DNA of 64,000 nt from an uncultured Actinomycetota bacterium (GCA_963844295.1 CAWJNR010000002.1:875816-939815); one strand, 5' to 3'. Positions 7,475 to 30,731 are shown, numbered from the stretch's first letter. A program made the numbers and translations. Notes: a model not told the origin generated them from the sequence alone.

Positions 7475-9919
7475 CTAGAGCCGCGGAGCCAGCTCGCGGC
7501 GACGCAGCCAGGCGGCCACGTCCAGTGCCGCCATCGGCCGCGCGTGCAGGTAGCCCTGCACCTCGTCCACGCCGAGCGCGCGCAGGATCCCCTGCTGGTC
7601 CTCCTGCTCGACCCCCTCGGCGACGACCCGCAGTCCCAGGGTGTGCGCGATGTCGACGACAGCGCGGACGACGGCCCGGTCGGCCGGGTCGTGCGACAGG
7701 CCGTCGACGAAGCCCTTGTCGATCTTCACCTCGTCGACGGGCAGGCCCTTGAGGTAGGTGAGGGACGAGTAGCCCGTCCCGAAGTCGTCCACCGACAGCT
7801 TGACGCCGAGCTCGCGCAGCTCGCCCATGCGGGTGGCCGCCAGCTGCGGGTCGGACACCACGACGCCCTCGGTGAGCTCGAGCGTCAGCAGGTCAGGAGC
7901 GATGCCGACCGAGGTCAGGATCGCGGCCACCTCGGTGACGAAGGCGGGGTCCAGCACCGTGTCGGCGCTGACGTTGACGGCGACACCCACGCGCCCGGCC
8001 CGGCGCTGCCAGCCCTTGCAGGCCGTGAGGCTCTGCCGCAGCACGGTGGCCGTCAGCGGGCCCATGAGCCCGGAGGCCTCGGCCAGCGGGACGAACTCGT
8101 CCGGACCGATGGACCCCAGGGCCGGGTGGGTCCAGCGGGCCAGCGCTTCCACGCCGCTGACCTGGCCGCTGGAGGTCTCCACCTTGGGCTGGTACGCGAC
8201 GCCGATCGCTCCGCTGGCGAGGGCCTCGCGCAGCGCGGTGACGACGGCCAGGCGCCGCTGGCCCTGCACCTCGTAGGCCGGCTCCCAGAGCACCGGGCCG
8301 CCGTGCGCGTGCCGGGCGCTGTACATCGCTGTCTCGGCGCGCCGGATGAGCGTGGCGGCGTCGTCGCCGTGCTCCGGAGCGCGCACGACGCCGACCGACA
8401 GGCGCACGTGCGTGCCCACCGGCCCGATCTGCGCGCTCCCCTCGACCTGGGCCCGGAGCCCGAGGCCGAACATCTCGGCGTCTCCGCCTGCGGCCGAGGA
8501 CGAGATGGCGACGGCGAAGCGGCCGCCGCCGATGCGCCCGACCAGCGCGTGGCTGTTGGAGAGCAGGAGCCGTCGCGTGACCTCGACCAGCAGCTCGTCA
8601 CCCACCTGGTGCCCCAGGGTGTCGTTCACCTCGCGGAACGAGTCCACGGCCACGGCGGCGAGGACGACCCCGTCGGCGTGCGTGAGCAGCAGGTGCTCCA
8701 GGCGCCGCGTCGTCTCGGTCAGGTTCGGCAGACCGGTGAGCGAGTCAGCGGTGGCTGCCCGCTCCAGGTCGGCGTGCAGGCGGCCGCGCTCCAGGGCCGT
8801 CGAGAGCTCCGCGCCCACCGTCTCGAGGACCCGGAGGTCGCCCATCTCGAAGCCGCGGGCGTTGCCCAGGCGCTCCGTCGCCGTGAGGATGCCGACCAGG
8901 CCGCTGCTCGCCATGAGAGGGGTCGCCATGGTGTCCTCGGATCCGCCACGGCGGCGGCTGCGCAGGGCTGAGGTGCCTGTGGAGGCGACCTGCCGGCCCA
9001 GCGGGGGGGCTTCGTCCACGGTCCTGACGGGGTCCTTGCCCTCTGCCACCACCAGGTGGCACCAGCGATCCTGGTCTGGGGCAGCCAGGTCCAGTCGCTC
9101 GGCGTGCAGCAGCAGGCGCACCCGCTCGAGGATCGTCGGAGCGTCGAGGGAGTTGATGGTCAGCGGCCCCAGGTCCTTCACGAACGCGTAGAGCTGCTCG
9201 GTCGCCCGTTGCTGAGCGACGACCTTGCGGTGTGCTCGGTAGCCGAGCGCCAGCCCTCCCGCCAGGGCCAGCATGACCAGGATGGTCGTCGGCTCCTCGC
9301 GCACGGCGTTGATCGCCACGACGGCGAGGCCGGTGAAGAGCAGGCTGACGGGTGCAGTGATGGCGATCGTCCGTGCGGCGCCGCTCAGGGGCGCTGGAAC
9401 GCCGATGGCGCGCCAGATGGCCGTGAGTACCAGCGCACCGAGGATGTCGCCGGCGAGGATCCCGAGGTACAGCGCCAACCACATGGCTGGGCCGCTGTCG
9501 GCGTTCGTCACGAGCCCGACCGCGAACGCGGCTGCGCCGACCTCGAAGCTGGCCGCAGCCAGGTTGAACAGGGCCTTCTGCGGTGGCTGCCGGTCCAGCA
9601 GGGTGTAGATCAGCGCCGCGGACAGTCGCGCTGCAAGGTGGACCATCGGTGCTACGGCCTGGACTCCCAGTGCCAGCGGCAGCTGCACCAGCGTGACGCT
9701 GTTCGACTCGCGCCGGAACTCGAAGTCGAGGGAGTACCGGTGCGCCAGCAGGTACACGACGACGAGGCCGACGAACAGCAGGAGGGTCGGCAGGCCCACG
9801 TCGAAGGCGGCAGGCGCAGCCAGCGCGCACAGCGCGACACCGAGCAGGAGGTAGGCAAGGGAGATGAGGGCCGCGACGCCGGGGCGACCGTGGACCGACT
9901 CCTCCTGGCCTGTGCTCAT
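7475..9919 (-). CDS. Membrane-anchored GAF / degenerate-GGDEF / EAL protein (probable c-di-GMP phosphodiesterase)
   Basis: Starts at MSTGQEESV, residue 134 of the track ORF, in an ATGA overlap with the upstream MFS stop. The N-terminus is multi-TM. The GGDEF site is degenerate (RIGGGRFAV). EAL motifs are intact (VEALARW, DDFGTGYSS, KIDKGFV, AEGVEQ, QGY). Confidence 0.85.
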   Translation of the reverse strand: MSTGQEESVHGRPGVAALISLAYLLLGVALCALAAPAAFDVGLPTLLLFVGLVVVYLLAHRYSLDFEFRRESNSVTLVQLPLALGVQAVAPMVHLAARLSAALIYTLLDRQPPQKALFNLAAASFEVGAAAFAVGLVTNADSGPAMWLALYLGILAGDILGALVLTAIWRAIGVPAPLSGAARTIAITAPVSLLFTGLAVVAINAVREEPTTILVMLALAGGLALGYRAHRKVVAQQRATEQLYAFVKDLGPLTINSLDAPTILERVRLLLHAERLDLAAPDQDRWCHLVVAEGKDPVRTVDEAPPLGRQVASTGTSALRSRRRGGSEDTMATPLMASSGLVGILTATERLGNARGFEMGDLRVLETVGAELSTALERGRLHADLERAATADSLTGLPNLTETTRRLEHLLLTHADGVVLAAVAVDSFREVNDTLGHQVGDELLVEVTRRLLLSNSHALVGRIGGGRFAVAISSSAAGGDAEMFGLGLRAQVEGSAQIGPVGTHVRLSVGVVRAPEHGDDAATLIRRAETAMYSARHAHGGPVLWEPAYEVQGQRRLAVVTALREALASGAIGVAYQPKVETSSGQVSGVEALARWTHPALGSIGPDEFVPLAEASGLMGPLTATVLRQSLTACKGWQRRAGRVGVAVNVSADTVLDPAFVTEVAAILTSVGIAPDLLTLELTEGVVVSDPQLAATRMGELRELGVKLSVDDFGTGYSSLTYLKGLPVDEVKIDKGFVDGLSHDPADRAVVRAVVDIAHTLGLRVVAEGVEQEDQQGILRALGVDEVQGYLHARPMAALDVAAWLRRRELAPRL

Positions 9920-11142
9920 CCCGACACCGATCGGCCCAAGATCACCCTCCCTTGAGTCTTCGCGGGCAACACGGGCGCCAGAAGCAGACACAGGGCGGCA
10001 ACAACTGCTATGGGGACGCGCGAGTCGGTGACCTCGGCGAGCGCTCCGGCGCTGAGCAGCACGACGCCCTGCAGGACCATGAGCAAGGTCCCGGCGACGC
10101 CGAAGGCGCGACCGCGCAGGTGGGGTGGCACGGCTTGCACGTAGGCGGAGTTGGCCACGATCTGCAAGCAGTTCCCGCAGCCGGCCAGCACCCAGAGGAC
10201 GACGATGACCGGCAGGTTGTCGACGAAGGGCGTCGCCAGGAGGGGGACGCAGCTCATGGCGACGAGGAGCGGGAACAGAGGCTCGCGTCGGTGCGACGGC
10301 AGCCGCAGCAGCGCCCACGAGCCGATGAGGAAGCCGGCCGGCACCGCCGCAGTGAGGATCCCCGCGGCCAGCGGCCCGCCACCGCGCTCGTCGGCGATCG
10401 TCACGGCGAGCCCCTCGGCGGCGATGACCGACGCGGCGCTCAGCAGCCCCCAGCTCAGCAGCACCCGCAGCCGGCGGCTGCTCCTGACGAGACGCAGCCC
10501 AGCTGCAGCCTCCTGCAGCGCACCGCCCGGGACTCCGGTCGTCTCGAGGATCCGCTCGCGGACGAAGGCGAGGAGCAGCAGCGCGGACAGGGCGAAGGTC
10601 GCCGCGTCGAGCAGCAGCGCCACCTCGACGCCCAGCAGCGCGACGAGCGCGCCGCCGGCGATGAAGCCGCCCACCTGCCCCGCCTGCCCGACGGCGTTGC
10701 TGAGCGCGTTGGCCACGACGTACGGCTCCCCGTCGAGCACGTCCGCCAGCAGGGCGCTGCGCGCGGCCTCCGCCGGGGGTGACAGCAGTCCCACCACGAT
10801 GAGCACGGCGAAGACCACCCAGAGCGAGAGCCCGGGCACGGCCAGGGCTGCGACCAGCGCCATCCGGGCGACGTCGCAGAGCACCATGATCCGGCGACGC
10901 GGGTAGCGGTCCGGCAGCGCGGACAGCAGCGGTCCTCCGACCAGCCAGGTGAGGTAGGAGCAGGCGTACGTCGCTGAGGCGGCGAACGGCGATCCCGACC
11001 TCTCGAGCACGAGCAGCGCGACGGCGATGCGGGCGACCTGGTCGCCGAGGGTGCTCATGCCGTCGGAGACCAGCAGCGCCCGGAACTCGCGCACGGCGAG
11101 GACCTCGCGGTACGTCACGCGAGCGTCACCGGCCGGAGTCAC
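9916..11142 (-). CDS. MFS transporter
   Basis: Hydrophobic protein with roughly 12 TM segments: VREFRALLVSDGMSTLGDQVARIAVALLVL ... LPDRYPRRRIMVLCD. This looks like an Mfs1/enterobactin-exporter-like family member. Confidence 0.85.
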   Translation of the reverse strand: MTPAGDARVTYREVLAVREFRALLVSDGMSTLGDQVARIAVALLVLERSGSPFAASATYACSYLTWLVGGPLLSALPDRYPRRRIMVLCDVARMALVAALAVPGLSLWVVFAVLIVVGLLSPPAEAARSALLADVLDGEPYVVANALSNAVGQAGQVGGFIAGGALVALLGVEVALLLDAATFALSALLLLAFVRERILETTGVPGGALQEAAAGLRLVRSSRRLRVLLSWGLLSAASVIAAEGLAVTIADERGGGPLAAGILTAAVPAGFLIGSWALLRLPSHRREPLFPLLVAMSCVPLLATPFVDNLPVIVVLWVLAGCGNCLQIVANSAYVQAVPPHLRGRAFGVAGTLLMVLQGVVLLSAGALAEVTDSRVPIAVVAALCLLLAPVLPAKTQGRVILGRSVSG

Positions 11143-12010: not shown

Positions 12011-12095
12011 GCCCGGGTGGTGGAACGGCATACACGGAAGGCTTAAACCCTTCTGCCCGACAGGGATTGCGGGTTCGACTCCCGCTCCGGGCACC
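12011..12095 (+). tRNA. tRNA-Leu, anticodon UAA (class II, long variable arm)
   Basis: Hand-folded. Acceptor GCCCGGG pairs with TCCGGGC. Anticodon stem-loop is GAAGG-CTTAAAC-CCTTC, giving anticodon TAA. Long variable arm is TGCCCGACAGGGATT. T-arm is GCGGG-TTCGACT-CCCGC. Discriminator is A. Confidence 0.85.
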
Positions 12096-23985: not shown

Positions 23986-24969
23986 ATGAGGCGTCCGCCC
24001 GGCCACCGGTCCCCGGCCCGCCCGACCGCGTGGGCGCTCGGGCTGGTGCTGCTGGGAAGCGCCTGCTCGGCGGCACCGGAGCCGCGAGCTGCTGCCGGGC
24101 CGGCCCCGGCGGCGCGGGGTGAGGTCCGCGAGGCACTCCGCGAACCCGTGCCGGTCGCCCCGAGCCCGACGCCCGCGCCGCCGCCGGCGCCGAACGCCGC
24201 CACCCCCGACCTCGACGTCAGCAGCGTGCTCGGCCCGCCGCCCGGCCCGCAGGTCGACGCGCAGCCGGAGCGCACGGCCGCGCCCGCCGACCGGTGGGCG
24301 CTGCTGGTCGGCGTGCAGGACTACCGGCCGCCGACGGTCGACACGATCGGCAGCGCGCAGGACGTCCGCTTCATCGCCGACGCCCTCGTCGCGAGCGGCT
24401 GGCGGGCCGACCAGATCCGGGTGCTGACCGACGAGCAGGTCACCGGTCGTGCGCTCCGCGAGGGGCTGGCCTGGCTGGCGGAGCGCAGCCGGCCGGGGAC
24501 CTTCGCGCTGTTCCACTACTCCGGCCACGTCAAGCAGCACGGCGGGCAGAGCGAGTCGCTGTGGCCCGTCGACCGCGACTTCGTCCGCGACCGCGAGGTG
24601 ACGGCCGCGCTCTCCGCCGCCGCGGGCAAGCTCTGGGTCGACATCGCCGGCTGCGAGGCGGCCAGCTTCCTGGACGGGCTGCCGAGCGAGCGGGTGCTGT
24701 TCACCGGCTCGTCGACGGCCGTCGAGAAGTCCTACGAGTACCCGCCCTGGGGCATGTCGGTCTGGACCGGGCTGCTGTTCGACCTCGGGCTGCAGCAGGG
24801 GCAGGCGGACGCCGACGGCGACGGGCGCACCACCGTCGGCGAGGCGCTGCGCTGGTCGACCTACTACGCGCAGGCCATCACCCTGGGGCAGGAGCCGTAC
24901 GGCCGGCAGACCCCGCAGATGGCCGGCGACCAAGTGCTCGGCTGGACCCTGGCGGACCCGCCGGCCTGA
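23986..24969 (+). CDS. Secreted/lipoprotein caspase-family (peptidase C14-like) protein
   Basis: Signal peptide plus Cys (AWALGLVLLGSACS). Pro/Ala-rich linker. Caspase-like His-Cys dyad context: RWALLVGVQDY ... FALFHYSGHV ... LWVDIAGCEAASF. Confidence 0.72.
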   Translation: MRRPPGHRSPARPTAWALGLVLLGSACSAAPEPRAAAGPAPAARGEVREALREPVPVAPSPTPAPPPAPNAATPDLDVSSVLGPPPGPQVDAQPERTAAPADRWALLVGVQDYRPPTVDTIGSAQDVRFIADALVASGWRADQIRVLTDEQVTGRALREGLAWLAERSRPGTFALFHYSGHVKQHGGQSESLWPVDRDFVRDREVTAALSAAAGKLWVDIAGCEAASFLDGLPSERVLFTGSSTAVEKSYEYPPWGMSVWTGLLFDLGLQQGQADADGDGRTTVGEALRWSTYYAQAITLGQEPYGRQTPQMAGDQVLGWTLADPPA

Positions 24970-24972
24970 GGC

Positions 24973-25429
24973 CTACGCGCCCGGCTTGACGACCATGAGG
25001 ACGACGATCGCGGTCCAGGCGAGCAGCACCAGGCCCGAACCGGCGGCGATGCGCCCTACCTGGTCGGTGGCGCTGCCGCCGCCCTCGATCGCCTTGGCCG
25101 CCGACAGCTGCGCCGGGACGACCAGCGCGAGCGTGAGCACCAGCGCCACGAACCACAGGGCGTACGACGCCGAGACCCAGAGCTGGCCCATCTCCCACTG
25201 CCCGCCGACGTCGCCGAGGCCGACCATCGCCGTGCCGAGCAGCACCGTGAGCAGCGTCGCCAGCGTGTAGAGGCGGGTGGTGCGGCTGGCGTCGCGCAGC
25301 GCCTGGGCGTGGCCGGCCCTGGCCGCGCGCACCGACGTCATCGCCGGCGATGGCCGCCGGCCCGACCAGGAACGCGACCGTGAGCAGGTGCAGGACGAGC
25401 ACGACGGCGTAGGTCCCGGAGTAGGTCAT
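24973..25429 (-). CDS. Small integral membrane protein (DUF2269-like, tentative), frameshift near 25340
   Basis: The N-terminus MTYSGTYAVVLVLHLLTVAFLVGPAAIAG (track ORF 24878..25429) continues in the frame of ORF 24973..25341 (TSVRAARAGHAQALRDASRTTRLYTLATLLTVLLG ... VVLMVVKPGA). Four predicted TM segments. Confidence 0.55.
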
Positions 25430-25473
25430 GGACGGACCGTAGCGACTCCAGCGCGCTGCGGCCCTCTACGTCG

Positions 25474-25521
25474 TTGCGTCCGCCCCCCGGACGCGCGCCG
25501 CGCTCGTGCTGCAGGACGCAA
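25474..25521. repeat. Hairpin repeat copy R6 (TTGCGTCC ... GCAGGACGCAA)
   Basis: gTTGCGTCCgccccccggacgcgcgccgcgctcgtgctGCAGGACGCAAg. It has the same terminal arms as the five copies at 55.7-57.1 kb. It is intergenic, between the membrane-protein start and the VWA stop. Confidence 0.5.
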
Positions 25522-25529
25522 GGGCAGGG

Positions 25530-27484
25530 TCAGCGGGCGCGGCGGCGGCCGCGGCGGGCGCGCAGGTAGTCGCTGACGACGTACTCACCGAGCCGCTCGG
25601 GGTCGGGGAGAACACCCGGCCGCCGTTGCGGGCCGCGAGCGTCTCGACGAAGTCGACCAGCCGCGGCTCGTCGTCGAGCATGAAGACGTTGATGGTCGCG
25701 CCGCGGCGGGTGACCCGCTCGACCTCGGCCAGCGTCAGCTCGAGCGTCTCCGGCAGCGGCGGCCAGCAGAACTCCGCGTAGCCGCTGCGGGTGAGGTGGG
25801 CGGTCGGCTCGCCGTCCGTGACGACCAGCACGACCGGTTCGCCGTCCGGGTGCTTGGCGAGGTGCCGCCCGGCCAGCACGAGCGCGTGCTGCAGGTTGGT
25901 GCCCTGCACGCGCTGTGCGTCGAGGCCAGCCAGCTCCTCGGGCTTGAGCACCTGCGCGTAGTCGCTGAAGCCGATGATCTCGATCGCGTCCTGCGGGTAC
26001 TTCGTCGTCACCAGCGAGTGCAGCGCGAGCGCCGTCGACTTGGCCGTGCCCCACGTGCCGCGCAGCTCCATCGAGAACGACAGGTCGACCAGCAGCGCGA
26101 CGGTCGCGCTCGTGCGCCGCTCGGTCTCGACGACCTCGAAGTCCTCGACGTGCAGGCGCACCGGACCGGCCCCCGACCTCAGCACCGCGTTGCGCACCGT
26201 GCGGACCACGTCCAGAGGCTGCTCGTCGCCGAACTCCCACGGCCGCGAGGCGCCGGTGCGCTCGCCCGCCGCGCCGGCGTCCTGCACGTCGTGGCCGCCC
26301 CGGCCACCTGCCTCGAGCTTGGCGAAGACCTTGCGCAGCGCGGTCGCCCCGACCCGGCGCACGGCCCTCGGCGACAGCTCGAGCCGGCCGCGGGCGTCGC
26401 GGACGAGGTAGCCCTGCTCCATCAGCTCGCGCTCGATCCGGCGCAGGGCCGCCACGTCGTCGACCGCCCCGCGACCGAGCGCGCGCTGCACCGCCGCCTC
26501 GTCGACGTCGTCGAGCGAGGCGCCCGGGTAGTCCTGCGACAGCGCGGCTTCCAGGTCGTCGAGGTCGGCCAGCTCCTCGAGCGCCGTCGTGGCGTCGCCC
26601 ATCCCCATGCCCTGCTCGCCGCGCATCTTCTCCCGGCCGCCCCACGGCAGGTCAGGACGGGCGTTGCGCAGGCTGTCGCCGAGCTGCGCCATCTGCGCCT
26701 GCAGGTCGAGGTCCATCGCGCCCTGCATGAGCTCGCCGAGCTCCTGGCGCTGCTGCGGGGTGAGCGAGTCCATCAGCCGCTGCTGCGCGGCCGCGCGCCG
26801 GGCGAGGTCGTCGACGAGCTCCTCCAGCGTCTCCGGCTGCGACGGGAAGAACTCCCCGTGCTTGCCCATGAAGTCGTCGAACTGCTCCTGCGTGTGCTCT
26901 CCGCGTGCGTCGGCCTCGAGCATCGCGTTGAGGTCGGCGAGCATGTCCTTCACCGCCTGCATCGCCTCGGGCGAGGCGTTCTCGAGCGCGTCCTTCATCC
27001 CCTTGAACTGGCTGTCGAGGACCTCCCGCCGCAGCAGGTCGTCGATCGCCTCGTACGCCGCCCGGGCCTCGTCGCTGCGCCACGCGTAGGGCTTGAGCGC
27101 CTGCACGGCCCGCGCGGTGTCGGTCGGCAGGGTGTCGAGCTCCAGCTCGCGCATGCGGGCGTCGTCCGACGGGTCGGGGAACAGCTCCTGCCGCTCGGCC
27201 TCCAGCGCCTGCTCGAGCAGGTCGCGCACCTCCTGCAGCGTGCCGTCGAGCTGCCCCTTCTGGCGGGCCTGCCGCTGCCGCTTCGCGACCTGGCGGCGCA
27301 GGTCGTCCAGCCCGCGCAGACCGTCCGCGCCGCGGCGCAGGAGGTCGCGCAGCGCCTGCCGGGCGCTCGCGCCGTCGAGCACCGCCTCGCCGATCTCGTC
27401 GAGCGCGGCGGCGACGTCGTACGGCGGCTCGAGCGGGTCGCGGCCGCCCGACCACGACCCGTAGCGGTAGGCGGCGCTGCTCAT
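25530..27484 (-). CDS. VWA domain-containing protein (BchD/CoxE-like partner of the upstream AAA ATPase), C-terminal frameshift near 25610
   Basis: Starts at MSSAAYRYGSWSGGRDPLEPPYD, in an ATGA overlap with the upstream small ORF. Long acidic coiled-coil region. VWA MIDAS context is ATVALLVDLSFSM ... VLVVTDGEPTAH. The true tail is in another frame ([24 protein letters not shown]-stop at 25530). Confidence 0.8.
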
Positions 27485-27780
27485 CGCCGGCCGGCCCGAG
27501 CGTTCAGGGAGCGGCAGCCGGCCTGGATCGCGAAAGCCACGGCCAGCACGACGATCGCGGCGCCGGGGGGCAGCCACTGACCGGAGAGCAGCTTGACCGG
27601 GACCAGCGCGAGGGCCACTGCGAGCGCCGCCTGCAGCAGCGTCGCCAGCACCACCTGCGGCGTGCCGCGCAGGGCGAACTCGTACAGGAACGGCAGGCGC
27701 GACAGCCGGGTCGACCGGGCCCGCTCGGCCCGGCGGGCGGCCTTGTCCAGGCCAGCCCGGTCGGCGCCGGCCTCAGCCAC
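27481..27780 (-). CDS. Small membrane protein (2 TM), unknown function
   Basis: Track ORF MAEAGADRAGLDKAARRAERARSTRLSRLPFLYEFALRGTPQVVLATLLQAALAVALALVPVKLL ... IVVLAVAFAIQAG. Its start overlaps the upstream stop by 8 nt, and its stop overlaps the VWA start (ATGA). Confidence 0.55.
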   Translation of the reverse strand: MAEAGADRAGLDKAARRAERARSTRLSRLPFLYEFALRGTPQVVLATLLQAALAVALALVPVKLLSGQWLPPGAAIVVLAVAFAIQAGCRSLNARAGRR

Positions 27781-28045
27781 GACCGGCCTCCTTCTCCTCC
27801 AGGTAGGCCTGCATCGCCAGCCGCCGCTGCAGCCGGTTCGCCGCCAGCACCGGCGCCATCAGCGGACGGACTCCCAGGAGGACCACGAGCAGCATGGCCG
27901 GCAGGAGCAGCCACGGCGGCGCCTCGAGCGCGGTGATCGTGTAGCCGAGCACGAAGAACGCGCCGAGCGTCAGGACCGCCGTCAGCAGGACCCGCCGCCG
28001 CAGGGCGAACGAGTCCGGGGTGCCGGGGTGGAGGTCGTCGCTCAC
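27773..28045 (-). CDS. Small membrane protein (2 TM), unknown function
   Basis: GTG start lies 1 nt after the AAA stop. VSDDLHPGTPDSFALRRRVLLTAVLTLGAFFVLGYTITALEAPPWLLLPAMLLVVLLGVRPL ... Confidence 0.55.
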   Translation of the reverse strand: MSDDLHPGTPDSFALRRRVLLTAVLTLGAFFVLGYTITALEAPPWLLLPAMLLVVLLGVRPLMAPVLAANRLQRRLAMQAYLEEKEAGRG

Positions 28046-28046
28046 G

Positions 28047-29462
28047 TCAGCCGCCGTAGACCGTCCGGCCGGCGACCTCGTCCTTGGCCAGCCGGCGGTT
28101 GAGGTGCAGCCCCTCCAGCGCGAGCTCGAGAGCCGCCGCGGCGAGGCCGGGCGACTCCTCCTCGACGCCGAGGCGGGACAGGATCGCGGCCAGGCCCGGC
28201 ACGGGGCCCAGGCCGGCGAGCAGGTCGGCGGCCGGGACGAGGTCACCGGTCTCGACGGTCGCGCCCTCGTCGAACCGCCCCTGCAGCCCGCTCAGGTCGA
28301 CGCCGGCCAGGTGCGCGCGGAAGACGTCGGCCGTCGCCTTGCGCAGCAGGTGGGCGAGGACCTCGAGCTCGCGGCCCTCCTCGGCCGACTCGAACTCCAC
28401 CTTGCCGCGGGCGGCGGGCACGACCGACGGCAGGTCGCACACCCGCGCGACCGCCTGCGCCTCACCCGTGACCGCGGCGCGTCGTACGGCCGAGGCGGCC
28501 ACCGTCTCGGCGCCGGCGACGGCGAAGCGGGCACTGACGCCGGAGCGCTGGTCGACCTGGGGCGACTCGCGCACGAGGCGGGTCCAGCGGGCGATGACCT
28601 CGATCAGGTGCTCGGGCACGACGACAGTCGTGCCGGGCCACTGCAGCTGCGCCTCCTGCGAGATCAGCGCCACCTCGTGCGACAGGTCGAGCGGGTAGTG
28701 GGTGCGCACCTCGGCCCCGAAGCGGTCCTTGAGCGGGGTGATGATGCGGCCGCGGTTGGTGTAGTCCTCGGGGTTGGCGGAGGCGACGAGCAGCAGGTCC
28801 AGCGGCAGCCGCAGCGTGTAGCCGCGGACCTGGATGTCGCGCTCCTCCAGGACGTTCAGCAGCGCGACCTGGATCCGCTCGGCCAGGTCGGGCAGCTCGT
28901 TGACGCTGAAGATCCCGCGGTTCGTGCGCGGGACCAGGCCGTAGTGGACGGTCTCCGGGTCGCCCAGCGTCCGACCCTCCGCGACCTTGATCGGGTCGAC
29001 GTCGCCGATGAGGTCGCCGACCGAGGTGTCCGGCGTCGCGAGCTTCTCGCCGTACCGGTCGCTGCGGTGCTTCCACGTCACCGGCGTCGCGTCGCCGTGC
29101 TCGGCGACGACCCGCTTGCCCTCCGGGCTGATCGGCGCGTACGGGTGCTCGTTGAGCTCGGAGCCGACCAGCACCGGCGTCCACTCGTCGAGCAGGCCGA
29201 CCAGCGTGCGGATCAGCCGCGTCTTGCCCTGCCCCCGCTCGCCGAGCAGCACCAGGTCGTGGCCGGCCAGCAGGGCCCGCTCGACCTGCGGCAGCACCGT
29301 GTCGTCGAAGCCGAGGATCCCGGGGAAGGCGGACTGGCCCGCCGCCAGCCGGACCAGCAGGTTGTCGCGCACCTCGACCTTGACCGGCTTGAGGACGTGA
29401 CCGCTCGCGCGCAGCTCGCCGAGGGTCGTGTCAGCAGGGGCGGGGGGCACCGGGCTCGTCAC
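28047..29462 (-). CDS. AAA+ ATPase, Mg-chelatase ChlI / sigma-54-interaction-domain-like
   Basis: Walker A is LLGERGQGKTRL. Walker B/sensor context is GIFSVNELPDLAERIQVALLNVLEERDIQVRGY ... LLLVASANPEDYTNRGRIITPLKDRF. Confidence 0.88.
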   Translation of the reverse strand: MTSPVPPAPADTTLGELRASGHVLKPVKVEVRDNLLVRLAAGQSAFPGILGFDDTVLPQVERALLAGHDLVLLGERGQGKTRLIRTLVGLLDEWTPVLVGSELNEHPYAPISPEGKRVVAEHGDATPVTWKHRSDRYGEKLATPDTSVGDLIGDVDPIKVAEGRTLGDPETVHYGLVPRTNRGIFSVNELPDLAERIQVALLNVLEERDIQVRGYTLRLPLDLLLVASANPEDYTNRGRIITPLKDRFGAEVRTHYPLDLSHEVALISQEAQLQWPGTTVVVPEHLIEVIARWTRLVRESPQVDQRSGVSARFAVAGAETVAASAVRRAAVTGEAQAVARVCDLPSVVPAARGKVEFESAEEGRELEVLAHLLRKATADVFRAHLAGVDLSGLQGRFDEGATVETGDLVPAADLLAGLGPVPGLAAILSRLGVEEESPGLAAAALELALEGLHLNRRLAKDEVAGRTVYGG

Positions 29463-29566
29463 CTCCCGACCGTACGTCCGCCGCGCCCGTCCGGCACCCC
29501 GCCCTGCACCCGGTCCGTCACCCGGAGGTGGCGGGCGGGACGGGCCGGACCTGGGACACTGCCGGC

Positions 29567-30731
29567 GTGGCGCGCTTCGGGGACGGACTGGCGGTGGGCA
29601 GCGACCTGCTCGCCGCGGCCGAGGCGGCGACCGCCGACGCGCTGGCCCCGCTCGGCGGCCGGGTGCCGGACCTGCTGTGCGTGTTCGTCAGCGGCGCCGA
29701 CCCCGACGCCTGCACCGCCGCGCTCGAGCGGGCGGCCGCATCGGGCCCGGCGGCGGGCGGTCCTGGGCTGCAGCGCCGGCGGCGTCCTCGGCGGCGCGAC
29801 CGGCGTGGAGGGGCGGCCGGCGGTCAGCGTCTTCGCCGCGGTGCTGCCGGGGGTGCGGCTGCGCAGCTTCCACCTCGAGGTGATGCGGGCCGAGGCGGGG
29901 GCCGCGGTCGTCGGCATGCCCGAGCTCGACGGCGGCGACGTCGCCGTGCTGCTCACCGACCCGTACAGCTTCCCGGTCGACGGCTTCCTCGCCCAGGCCA
30001 ACACGGCGCTGCCCGGACTGCCGGTCGTCGGTGGGGTCGCGGCGGGCTCGCGCGGCGCCGGCTCGACCCGGCTCCTCGTCGACGGTCGCGTGGTCGACCG
30101 CGGCGCGGTCGGGCTGATGGTGCAGGGAGCCGGCCTGCGCACGCTCGTCAGCCAGGGCTGCCGTGCCGTCGGGCCGGCGATGACGGTCACCGCCGCCTCC
30201 GGCAACGTCCTGCGGGGTCTCGCGGGAGTGCCTGCCCTGCAGCGGCTCGAGCAGCTGCTCCGCGAGCTCCCGCCGGGCGAGCAGGCGCTGGCCAGCACCG
30301 GCCTGCAGATCGGTCTGGCCGTCGACGAGTACGCCGAGGAGCACGACTACCTCGTCCGGCCGATCCTCGGCGTGGAGCGCGAGACGCAGGGCGTCGTCGT
30401 CGGCGACCTCGTCGAGGTCGGCAGCACCGTGCGCCTGCAGGTCCGCGACGCCGACGCGGCCGACGCCGACCTGCGCCGCGTGCTGGCCGGCTACCGCCGC
30501 GACACGCTGGACGCGCCGGCCGGGGGAGCGCTGCTGTTCTCCTGCAACGGCCGGGGCGCCCACCTGTTCGGCACCGCGCACGGCGGCGCCGACCACGACC
30601 CGGCCCTCGTGCGCCGGGAGCTCGCGGCGCAGGGCGTGGCCGGCTTCTTCGCCGGCGGCGAGCTCGGTCCGGTGGCCGGCCGCAACTCCCTGCACGGCTT
30701 CACCGCCGCCCTGCTCGCCTTCCCCGGCTGA
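29567..30731 (+). CDS. FIST N/C domain-containing sensor protein, frameshift near 29750
   Basis: The N-terminus VARFGDGLAVGSDLLAAAEAATADALAPLGGRVPDLLCVFVSG (frame of ORF 29528) continues in the frame of ORF 28020..30731 (AVLGCSAGGVLGG ... ALLFSCNGRGAHLFG ... VAGFFAGGELGP). Confidence 0.75.

What the first reader, a model, noticed from the sequence alone, without database searches (positions are those of the whole stretch)
25530..29462. Translationally coupled AAA ATPase / two micro-membrane proteins / VWA operon
Four minus-strand genes are chained by start-stop overlaps:
- AAA stop, 1 nt, then the GTG of a 90-aa 2-TM protein.
- An 8-nt overlap into a 99-aa 2-TM protein.
- An ATGA overlap into a roughly 650-aa protein with a long acidic coiled coil and a C-terminal VWA/MIDAS domain.

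The ATPase is ChlI/BchI-like and the VWA partner is BchD/CoxE-like. That makes this a split chelatase-like or MoxR-VWA-like machine. Two dedicated small membrane subunits wedged between the ATPase and its VWA partner are not part of the textbook ChlI/ChlD or MoxR/VWA pairs. They suggest a membrane-tethered AAA-VWA remodelling or insertion complex of unknown substrate.
Basis: partly seen in the sequence, partly recalled or inferred. Interest (0 to 1): 0.58.

Follow-up and report, generated by a model that had tools for sequence, protein, structure and literature searches.

The report
Clade-specific membrane mini-genes in AAA–VWA operon
Two real but very narrowly distributed small membrane-protein genes have been slotted, with start-stop overlaps, between the ATPase and VWA genes of a widespread, uncharacterised actinobacterial gene pair (the Rv0958/Rv0959 type), which in most relatives are directly joined.

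Summary
On the minus strand, AAA (28047-29462), S1 (90 aa), S2 (99 aa) and VWA are chained by TGA+1 nt+GTG, an 8-nt overlap and an ATGA overlap. The VWA gene only ends at 25530 if one C missing from a C5 run at about 25608 is restored. FIST and DUF2269 next door are also frameshifted, so assembly error is likely.

S1 and S2 are genuine genes. They have conserved motifs, pN/pS of 0.25-0.35 in close pairs (similar to AAA and VWA), two predicted TM helices each and arginine-rich cytoplasmic ends. They are not homologous to each other and match no Pfam family.

They are not a general feature of the system. In 79 of 79 testable species genomes AAA and VWA are adjacent, and in 36 of 78 they lie within 5 nt or overlap. 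Only 4 of 80 carry one small gene, and none carries both. All bearers form one narrow Frankiales-like clade. S1 has only 26 relatives among 1.84 billion representatives. S2 is always found at this exact junction (16 of 16 metagenome loci).

The ATPase is remotely ChlI/BchI-like. The VWA partner belongs to the Rv0959/Mb0984 family, whose function is unknown. The membrane-adaptor role is plausible but untested.

The parts
28047..29462 (-). ChlI/BchI-like AAA+ ATPase (Rv0958 type). The longest ORF is 471 aa. The probable start is GTG at 29450 (467 aa). Walker A is GERGQGKT at 74-81. Walker B reads VNE (N188-E189) instead of VDE.
27773..28045 (-). S1: 90-aa protein with two predicted TM helices. 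Conserved motifs are ALRRRVLL and VRPLMAPV..RLRRRLA. The GTG start lies 1 nt after the AAA stop.
27481..27780 (-). S2: 99-aa protein with two predicted TM helices. Conserved motifs are RLSRLPFLY and LNARAGR. It has an 8-nt overlap with S1, and a GGAGAAGGAGG Shine-Dalgarno-like run lies inside the S1 3' end.
25530..27484 (-). VWA/MIDAS protein of the Rv0959/Mb0984 family. It has an acidic helical N-terminal 430 aa and a VWA_2 domain at 462-559. It is 651 aa if one C is restored at about 25608. As read, the ORF runs to 25466 (672 aa).
25604..25612 (-). Single-base deletion in a C run (C5 in relatives, C4 here) that frameshifts the last 24 codons of the VWA gene.
24973..25429 (-). DUF2269 integral membrane protein gene about 100 nt downstream of VWA on the same strand. 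It is frameshifted near 25345 relative to intact orthologues and may be a fifth operon member.
29528..30731 (+). FIST_N/FIST_C sensory-domain gene, transcribed divergently from AAA. It is frameshifted near 29754 relative to intact orthologues.

Best explanation
The core is an ancient, directly coupled two-gene module found across Actinomycetes. It pairs a ChlI/BchI-like AAA+ ATPase with an acidic helical VWA/MIDAS protein, of the Rv0958/Rv0959 type. By analogy with other AAA+-VWA couples, it most likely acts as an ATP-driven chaperone plus peptide- or metal-binding co-chaperone. Its client is unknown.

In one narrow Frankiales-like clade, two unrelated orphan genes were inserted one after the other at the AAA|VWA junction, S1 first and then S2. 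Each time the start-stop coupling was preserved, so all four proteins are made from one mRNA in linked amounts.

Each small protein is predicted to be a helical hairpin with N and C termini in the cytoplasm and conserved arginine-rich cytoplasmic segments. I infer that they dock on the strongly acidic N-terminal helical region of the VWA protein, or on the ATPase, and hold or regulate the machine at the membrane. The DUF2269 membrane protein encoded just downstream may lie alongside.

Shown: the gene architecture, the conserved coupling, purifying selection, the clade restriction and the order of gain and loss.
Inferred: the topology, the physical interaction, the membrane recruitment and the biochemical role.

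The confidence of 0.5 is for the whole statement. That S1 and S2 are real, clade-restricted, co-translated accessory genes I put at about 0.9. That they physically tether or regulate the AAA/VWA machine at the membrane I put at about 0.4.
For: - Junctions are read directly and conserved in relatives.
- The S1 and S2 families have invariant motifs.
- Close-pair pN/pS is 0.25 (S1) and 0.35 (S2), against 0.26 (AAA) and 0.23 (VWA).
- GC3 is at least 0.92 for S2 and the flanking genes.
- S2 lies between AAA and VWA in 16 of 16 metagenome loci found through S2 itself.
- S1 has only 26 representatives among 1.84 billion, nearly all small proteins.
- All bearers are monophyletic on an AAA tree. S1-only loci are basal, S1+S2 loci are derived, and S2-only arose twice.
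- Each protein has two TM peaks, uncharged short loops and net positive termini. VWA residues 1-430 have pI 4.6.
- AAA-VWA adjacency holds in 79 of 79 loci, and in 36 of 78 the genes lie within 5 nt or overlap.
- The closest solved structures are ChlI/BchI. The VWA_2 domain and MIDAS motif are present. Relatives hit the Rv0959/Mb0984 Pfam families.
- A DUF2269 membrane gene follows VWA in 26 of 83 loci, 10 nt after it in L097.
- The general AAA+-vWA chaperone/co-chaperone logic is described in PMC7159879.
Against:
- The monomer AlphaFold models were too poor to use (pLDDT 53.6 and 46.6).
- Most of the family works without S1 or S2. Either one can be lost (L001, L088, L091, L094 and L097 lack S1; L002, L003 and L005 lack S2), so neither is essential to the machine.
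- The same junction has accepted unrelated genes in other lineages, which suggests it may simply be a permissive insertion site.
- Across subclades S1 evolves fast (pN/pS 0.78 over all pairs, although synonymous sites are near saturation).
- The tree is neighbour-joining without support values.
Confidence: 0.5

Rival explanations
1. S1 and S2 are real small membrane proteins but functionally unrelated passengers. The tightly coupled AAA|VWA junction is a permissive, well-expressed site, and young orphan genes have lodged there without becoming subunits of the machine.
For: - They are absent from 76 of 80 surveyed species genomes.
- Each can be lost.
- Unrelated genes were inserted at the same junction in other lineages: a secreted protein of about 250 aa in 5 Nonomuraea/Microtetraspora loci and an SRPBCC protein in Terrabacter.
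- There is no family or homology link to any known AAA/VWA accessory protein.
Against: - They occur only at this junction, in every locus found through S2 itself.
- The overlap geometry is maintained over deep divergence.
- Purifying selection is as strong as on the flanking genes in close pairs.
- Their basic cytoplasmic tails complement the acidic partner.
Confidence: 0.3
2. The four genes encode a true metal chelatase: a ChlI/ChlD- or CobS/CobT-like motor that inserts Mg or Co into a tetrapyrrole, with S1 and S2 as membrane anchors.
For: - ChlI/BchI are the best PDB matches.
- There are weak NCBIfam hits to BchD/ChlD, BchI/ChlI and a putative cobaltochelatase.
- Databases name the ATPase 'magnesium chelatase subunit I'.
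- A transposon insertion 49 bp upstream of the M. marinum gene listed as the Rv0958 orthologue turned up in a B12-resistance screen.
Against: - Scores are 30-39 bits against cut-offs of 467-779.
- The VWA partner lacks the AAA-like N-domain of ChlD/BchD.
- No ChlH/CobN-sized gene is among the conserved neighbours in 80 loci.
- Conserved neighbours are FIST, ilvA, ROK and DUF2269, not tetrapyrrole genes.
- The B12 screen hit was not followed up by its authors.
Confidence: 0.1
3. The small ORFs are artefacts: chance open frames in 75% GC DNA that fill a long intergenic spacer.
For: - Stop codons are rare in GC-rich DNA.
- The window has at least three frameshift errors nearby.
- Neither ORF has a Pfam family.
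Against: - There are 56 and 50 protein clusters with invariant motifs and no frame-breaking indels.
- Close-pair pN/pS is 0.25-0.35.
- Start-stop overlaps are conserved.
- Independent pipelines call them as genes.
Confidence: 0.03

Closest known systems
Mycobacterium tuberculosis Rv0958 / Rv0959 (M. bovis Mb0984 for the VWA partner; M. smegmatis MSMEG_5512; M. marinum MMAR_4541)
   Same: - Close relatives of the window's VWA protein (L097, L098) hit Pfam Mb0984_helical, Rv0959_3rd and VWA_2.
- The ATPase carries the same database names ('magnesium chelatase', sigma-54 interaction domain) and a similar size (1,392 bp for MMAR_4541).
- The function is unknown in the literature searched.
   Different: Orthology of the ATPase to Rv0958 was not tested with sequence here. 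From memory, Rv0958 and Rv0959 are directly adjacent with no small genes between them, as in most genomes surveyed. The window's clade adds S1 and S2.
Mg-chelatase ChlI/BchI with ChlD/BchD
   Same: It is a helix-2-insert-type AAA+ ATPase with the best PDB similarity to ChlI/BchI (E 8e-12). Its partner has a C-terminal VWA/MIDAS domain preceded by an acidic region.
   Different: Scores fall far below the equivalog cut-offs. The partner has a helical N-terminus instead of an AAA-like domain. There is no ChlH/CobN neighbour. Walker B reads VNE rather than VDE, and this is invariant in the family.
MoxR-VWA chaperone/co-chaperone couples (RavA-ViaA, CbbQ-CbbO, NorQ-NorD, CoxD-CoxE)
   Same: These are adjacent, co-transcribed AAA+ and VWA genes. 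The general ATP-driven remodelling or insertion logic is described in PMC7159879.
   Different: The ATPase is not a MoxR. AAA_3 scores 20.7 bits against a 27-bit cut-off, bpMoxR scores 16 against 27, and no MoxR structure appears among the PDB hits. No CoxE-type VWA family hit appeared.
Bat/aerotolerance-type operons and Rv1479-Rv1481 (MoxR, DUF58, membrane-anchored VWA)
   Same: This is a precedent for AAA+-VWA systems that operate at the membrane. The VWA domain's weak best PDB matches are BatB-like proteins (E 0.06).
   Different: In those systems the VWA protein carries its own TM helices (from memory). Here the VWA protein is soluble, and any anchoring would come from separate orphan 2-TM proteins.

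Membership tests
AAA+-VWA two-gene couple (generic) | An AAA+ ATPase gene is immediately followed by a VWA-domain gene on the same strand, and this is conserved across taxa. | tested here: met
   79 of 79 testable loci across Frankiales-like, Geodermatophilaceae, Streptosporangiales, Micromonosporales, Pseudonocardiales, Nocardioidaceae and others.
VWA/MIDAS domain | The Pfam VWA family scores above its cut-off and a DxSxS metal-site motif is present. | tested here: met
   VWA_2 scores 30 bits against a 27-bit cut-off and hits 25 of 25 relatives. DLSFS is at residue 467, with D467, S469 and S471 invariant.
Rv0959/Mb0984 family (VWA partner) | Pfam Mb0984_helical (PF27532) and Rv0959_3rd (PF27098) domains lie N-terminal to the VWA domain. 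| tested here: met
   Precomputed Pfam hits on 650-aa orthologues in L097 and L098, which are 85-90% class relatives of the window protein. These models are not in the local Pfam copy, so the window protein itself was not scored.
Mg-chelatase subunit I (BchI/ChlI) | The score reaches the TIGR02030 equivalog cut-off. | tested here: not met
   33.9 bits against 466.95. PDB similarity to ChlI/BchI is remote (E 8e-12) and limited to the ATPase core.
Mg-chelatase subunit D (BchD/ChlD) or cobaltochelatase CobT-like | There is an N-terminal AAA-like domain plus a C-terminal VWA domain, and the score reaches the TIGR02031 or TIGR02442 cut-off. | tested here: not met
   The VWA protein has only a 34-bit hit to the VWA part of TIGR02442 (cut-off 779) and no AAA family on its N-terminus.
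Chelatase system | A large porphyrin-binding ChlH/CobN subunit gene is associated with the pair. | tested here: not met
   No such family is among the 16 most frequent neighbour clusters within +/-8 kb in 80 loci. The rest of each genome was not searched.
MoxR AAA+ (AAA_3) | PF07726 scores at or above its gathering cut-off. | tested here: not met
   20.7 bits against 27. bpMoxR scores 16 against 27.
Sigma-54 activator (bEBP) | A GAFTGA loop and a C-terminal DNA-binding HTH are present. | tested here: not met
   The Sigma54_activat hit covers only profile positions 85-143 of 168. No GAFTGA occurs in the 471-aa sequence (direct reading). No HTH family was hit.
Known anti-phage defence systems | A PADLOC model matches any of the four proteins. 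| tested here: not met
   There is only a 28-residue Walker-A-region hit for the ATPase, and nothing for S1, S2 or VWA.
MscS-type mechanosensitive channel (a name some sources give S1) | There is a significant, full-length match to an MscS family. | tested here: not met
   MscS_TM gives only sub-threshold hits (best E 1.4e-4 in 16 of 26 members, none for the window protein). I read this as hydrophobic composition.

The most novel reading that the evidence does not exclude
S1 and S2 are two independently born, non-homologous orphan micro-proteins that converged on the same job: a 2-TM hairpin with arginine-rich cytoplasmic tails that recruits an otherwise soluble Rv0958/Rv0959-type AAA+/VWA remodeller to the membrane. 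S2 later made S1 dispensable in some lineages. If so, this would be a naturally replicated example of new adaptor subunits being added to, and exchanged on, an old molecular machine. It would also give a handle on the unknown client of the Rv0958/Rv0959 system.
Probability: 0.2. Interest if true: 0.55.

Novelty: new variant of a known kind. Interest (0 to 1): 0.36.

Why it matters
The Rv0958/Rv0959-type AAA+/VWA pair is conserved across Actinomycetes, probably including M. tuberculosis, yet has no assigned function. One clade has bolted two dedicated membrane hairpins onto it. Many lineages place a DUF2269 membrane protein just downstream, and other lineages inserted a secreted protein at the same junction. 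Together these observations point weakly towards an envelope- or membrane-related client and suggest concrete pull-down and localisation experiments. The locus is also a clean small case study of how orphan genes enter a translationally coupled operon without breaking the coupling. The feature is confined to a handful of uncultured soil lineages, so its general importance is modest.

Tried and rejected
The VWA protein as a single sequence gave pLDDT 46.6. Both were too poor for fold searches, so none were run. Only the all-helical tendency of VWA residues 24-356 was noted.
- Profile-profile comparison of S1 against S2 found no homology (probability 2.8%), so a tandem-duplication origin was rejected.
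- S1 and S2 HMMs were searched against the AAA|VWA spacers of other lineages and against the whole window in six frames. No remnants or extra copies were found. The origin stays unknown.
- The 66-aa ORF in the L004 spacer has no TM helix and no HMM match.
- The Pfam MscS_TM and holin hints for S1 were judged to be compositional.
- PADLOC found no defence system.
- Rfam found nothing in the region.
- Promoter and terminator consensus scans found 0 sites. These scans are uninformative at 75% GC.
- A PDB sequence search with the VWA protein found nothing significant.
- All-pairs pN/pS is inflated by saturation at GC3 of about 95%, so close pairs were used instead.
- The literature on Rv0958/Rv0959 and their orthologues contains only screen listings.
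Full report
**1. What is in the sequence**

The window is 75% GC. On the minus strand, one search lists an AAA ORF at 28047-29462 (471 aa) and a 99-aa ORF at 27481-27780. It also lists a long ORF at 25466-27577 that contains the VWA protein.

- The AAA stop TGA is followed by one base and then GTG, which starts a 90-aa ORF (S1, 28045->27773).
- GTGGCTGA forms an 8-nt overlap into the 99-aa ORF (S2, 27780->27481).
- ATGA forms the overlap into the VWA gene at 27484.

A GGAGAAGGAGG run sits 8-18 nt upstream of the S2 start, inside the S1 coding sequence.

The AAA gene more probably starts at the GTG at 29450, 11 nt after GGGAGG. This matches the 100%-identical 467-aa database protein P0001, which comes from a 2.05-Mb contig.

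**2.

As read, the VWA ORF runs to 25466 and ends in about 45 residues of low-complexity sequence. Close relatives end ...[31 protein letters not shown].

The window encodes exactly that tail in another frame, ending at 25530. It differs from relatives by one C missing from a C5 run at about 25608. With that base restored the protein is 651 aa, the same length as in L085.

Two neighbouring genes are also frameshifted relative to intact orthologues. DUF2269 is broken near 25345, and the FIST gene near 29754. Three indels in three of six adjacent genes, each leaving the downstream frame perfectly conserved, point to assembly error rather than decay. This cannot be settled without the reads.

**3. 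Are S1 and S2 real genes?**

Yes, on four grounds.
- Word-index searches found 56 protein clusters for S1 and 50 for S2, all 85-108 aa.
- Alignments show invariant soluble motifs. For S1 these are L15, R17-R18-V19-L20, R60-P61, M63, P65, R71 and R74. For S2 they include R25-L26, R28-L29-P30, L32-Y33 and N93, A96-G97-R98.
- Among closely related pairs with unsaturated synonymous sites, pN/pS is 0.25 for S1 and 0.35 for S2. The same loci give 0.26 for AAA and 0.23 for VWA. All-pairs values are higher (0.78 and 0.56), but synonymous sites are near saturation at this GC3.
- Independent pipelines call both as genes, including in the window's own genome.

Each protein has two hydrophobic peaks, a short uncharged connecting loop (EAPPW in S1, SGQWLPP in S2) and net positive termini. 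By the positive-inside rule this predicts a hairpin with both N and C termini in the cytoplasm.

S1 and S2 are not homologous to each other (hhalign probability 2.8%). Neither matches a Pfam, NCBIfam or PADLOC family. The 'mechanosensitive channel' and 'fatty acid desaturase' names in some sources rest on sub-threshold hydrophobic matches.

**4. How general is the arrangement?**

A scan of one genome per species found at least 593 relatives of the ATPase. The best 80 loci were kept. They span Frankiales-like MAGs, Geodermatophilaceae, Acidothermus, Streptosporangiales, Micromonosporales, Pseudonocardiales, Nocardioidaceae, Terrabacter and Nanopelagicales.

The VWA gene follows the AAA gene on the same strand in 79 of 79 testable loci; L037 ends at the contig edge. 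In 65 of 78 loci the gap is 100 nt or less. In 36 of 78 the stop and start are within 5 nt or overlap. Direct AAA->VWA coupling is therefore the ancestral and usual state.

Only four loci have a small TM gene in the gap: L002, L003 and L005 have S1 only, and L001 has S2 only. None has both.

Other long gaps hold unrelated genes:
- A secreted protein of about 250 aa with no Pfam family, in five Nonomuraea/Microtetraspora loci.
- An SRPBCC (Polyketide_cyc2) protein in Terrabacter.
- A 66-aa non-TM ORF in L004.

**5. Distribution of S1 and S2 seen from their own side**

A profile of S1 searched against 1.84 billion representative proteins found only 26 hits at E <= 0.001, nearly all small proteins.

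A metagenome scan seeded with S2 motifs returned 16 loci. In all 16, S2 lies between AAA and VWA. Thirteen have AAA-S1-S2-VWA and three have AAA-S2-VWA.

Two longer contigs with independent gene calls show the same picture:
- L098 reads AAA(470)-S1(88)-S2(95)-VWA(650).
- L097, from a 4.16-Mb contig, reads AAA(468)-S2(97)-VWA(650)-DUF2269(151).

The overlap geometry is conserved even where S1 is only 42-45% identical:
- S1->S2 is -8 in 13 of 14 loci in my set, and -4 in L098.
- S2->VWA is -4 in every testable locus.
- AAA->S1 ranges from -4 to +2, mostly +1 or -4.

**6. Order of events**

On a neighbour-joining tree of the ATPase, all S-bearing loci form one clade. S1-only loci (L002, L005, L003) branch first. 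S1+S2 loci (L087, L089, L085 and the window) are nested within. S2-only loci appear twice (L001; L088/L091/L094).

The most parsimonious reading is one gain of S1, then one gain of S2, then two losses of S1. The tree has no support values, so this is provisional.

No trace of either gene was found in the spacers of outgroups or elsewhere in the window. Their origin is unknown. A de novo origin is possible but was not tested.

**7. What the big proteins are**

*The ATPase.* It hits Mg_chelatase, AAA_5 and Sigma54_activat weakly, and MoxR families below their cut-offs. NCBIfam chelatase equivalogs score 30-39 bits against cut-offs of 467-779.

With a diverse family profile, the best solved structures are ChlI/BchI (E 8e-12 and 3e-11), followed by archaeal LonB. 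No MoxR protein appears. The Walker A motif is intact. The Walker B position reads VNE rather than VDE, and this is invariant across the family. There is no GAFTGA loop or HTH, so it is not a sigma-54 activator.

*The partner.* It has a generic VWA_2 domain with a DxSxS MIDAS motif. Its N-terminal 430 residues are strongly acidic (pI 4.6) and come out helical even in a poor model. A HemN_C-like winged-helix signal appears in 8 of 25 relatives.

Precomputed Pfam hits on its orthologues name the family outright: Mb0984_helical and Rv0959_3rd. So this is the M. tuberculosis Rv0959 family.

*The link to Rv0958.* The adjacent ATPase carries the same database labels and size as Rv0958, MSMEG_5512 and MMAR_4541. 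I did not align those sequences directly.

*The literature.* Papers searched contain only screen listings:
- A transposon insertion upstream of MMAR_4541 in a B12-resistance screen, not followed up.
- No DNA association for MSMEG_5512.
- An Rv0959 hit in a host-QTL table.

No paper found assigns a function to the pair.

**8. Context**

The pair sits in a conserved core-genome block that includes ilvA, greA, cystathionine enzymes and ROK. Two neighbours recur:
- A divergently transcribed FIST sensory-domain gene, in 34 of 80 loci.
- A DUF2269 integral membrane protein gene downstream on the same strand, in 26 of 83 loci. It lies 10 nt after VWA in L097 and about 100 nt after it in the window.

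No Rfam element, consensus promoter or consensus terminator was found in the region.

**9. Interpretation**

But the small genes are an accessory of one narrow lineage, not a defining part of the system.

I commit to the following reading. The Rv0958/Rv0959-type pair is an ATP-driven remodelling couple with an unknown client. The mechanism is inferred by analogy with other AAA+-VWA couples (PMC7159879). In this clade, S1 and S2 are co-translated membrane hairpins. Their conserved Arg-rich cytoplasmic segments dock on the acidic partner and localise or regulate it at the membrane.

The genetic architecture, conservation and selection are shown. The docking and the function are inferred.

The main rival is that S1 and S2 are passengers at a permissive junction. 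That view is supported by their dispensability and by unrelated insertions at the same site. It is weakened by their exclusive occurrence at this junction and by the conserved coupling. A true chelatase role is unlikely on membership tests. Spurious ORFs are effectively excluded.

**10. Verdict**

This is a real, tidy, lineage-specific elaboration of a known kind of system. It is of moderate interest for operon and orphan-gene evolution, and it offers a small clue that the uncharacterised Rv0958/Rv0959 machine may have membrane-related business. It is not a new class of machine.

Noticed in passing
window 25604-25612 (minus strand): One C is missing from a C5 homopolymer relative to four relatives. 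This frameshifts the last 24 codons of the VWA gene, and the correct tail is intact in the other frame, ending at 25530.
   Followed up: yes
window 24973-25429 (minus strand), break near 25345: The DUF2269 membrane-protein gene is split across two frames. The N-terminal MTYSGTYAVVLVLHLLTVAFLVGPAAIA is in one frame and the rest in another, whereas orthologues in L087, L091 and L094 are intact. A DUF2269 gene follows the VWA gene on the same strand in 26 of 83 loci, so it may be an operon member.
   Followed up: partly
window 29528-30731 (plus strand), break near 29754: The FIST_N/FIST_C sensory-domain gene is frameshifted relative to intact 387-414-aa orthologues. A FIST gene is divergently adjacent to the ATPase in 34 of 80 loci, which may indicate a regulatory link.
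   Followed up: partly
L024, L042, L063, L067, L069 (about 9400-10500 in each); L039 9457-9885: There are independent insertions at the same AAA|VWA junction in other lineages. Nonomuraea and Microtetraspora carry a Cys-containing protein of about 250 aa with a signal peptide and no Pfam family. Terrabacter carries an SRPBCC/Polyketide_cyc2 protein.
   Followed up: partly
window 28896-28904 (AAA residues 187-189): The Walker B motif of the ATPase reads V-N-E instead of the usual V-D-E. The Asn is invariant in two family alignments down to 68% identity. The consequence for Mg-ATP binding or hydrolysis is unknown.
   Followed up: no
window 23986-24969 (plus strand): A Peptidase_C14 (caspase-domain) protein with an N-terminal hydrophobic, lipoprotein-like leader lies convergent to the operon. 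The same neighbour is present in L097. PADLOC's generic caspase model hits it, but no defence system is evident.
   Followed up: no
L006 and L037: Contigs labelled 'Candidatus Melainabacteria' and 'Bifidobacterium breve' MAGs carry this actinomycete-type ATPase at 78% and 68% identity. L006 also has the VWA partner and a high-GC context, which suggests mis-binned contigs.
   Followed up: no
L004 3910-4110: A 193-nt AAA|VWA spacer holds a 66-aa Arg/Glu-rich ORF with no TM helix, whose start overlaps the AAA stop. It shows no detectable relation to S1 or S2.
   Followed up: partly
window 12011-12093 (plus strand): This tRNA gene is the only Rfam match in the whole window.
   Followed up: no
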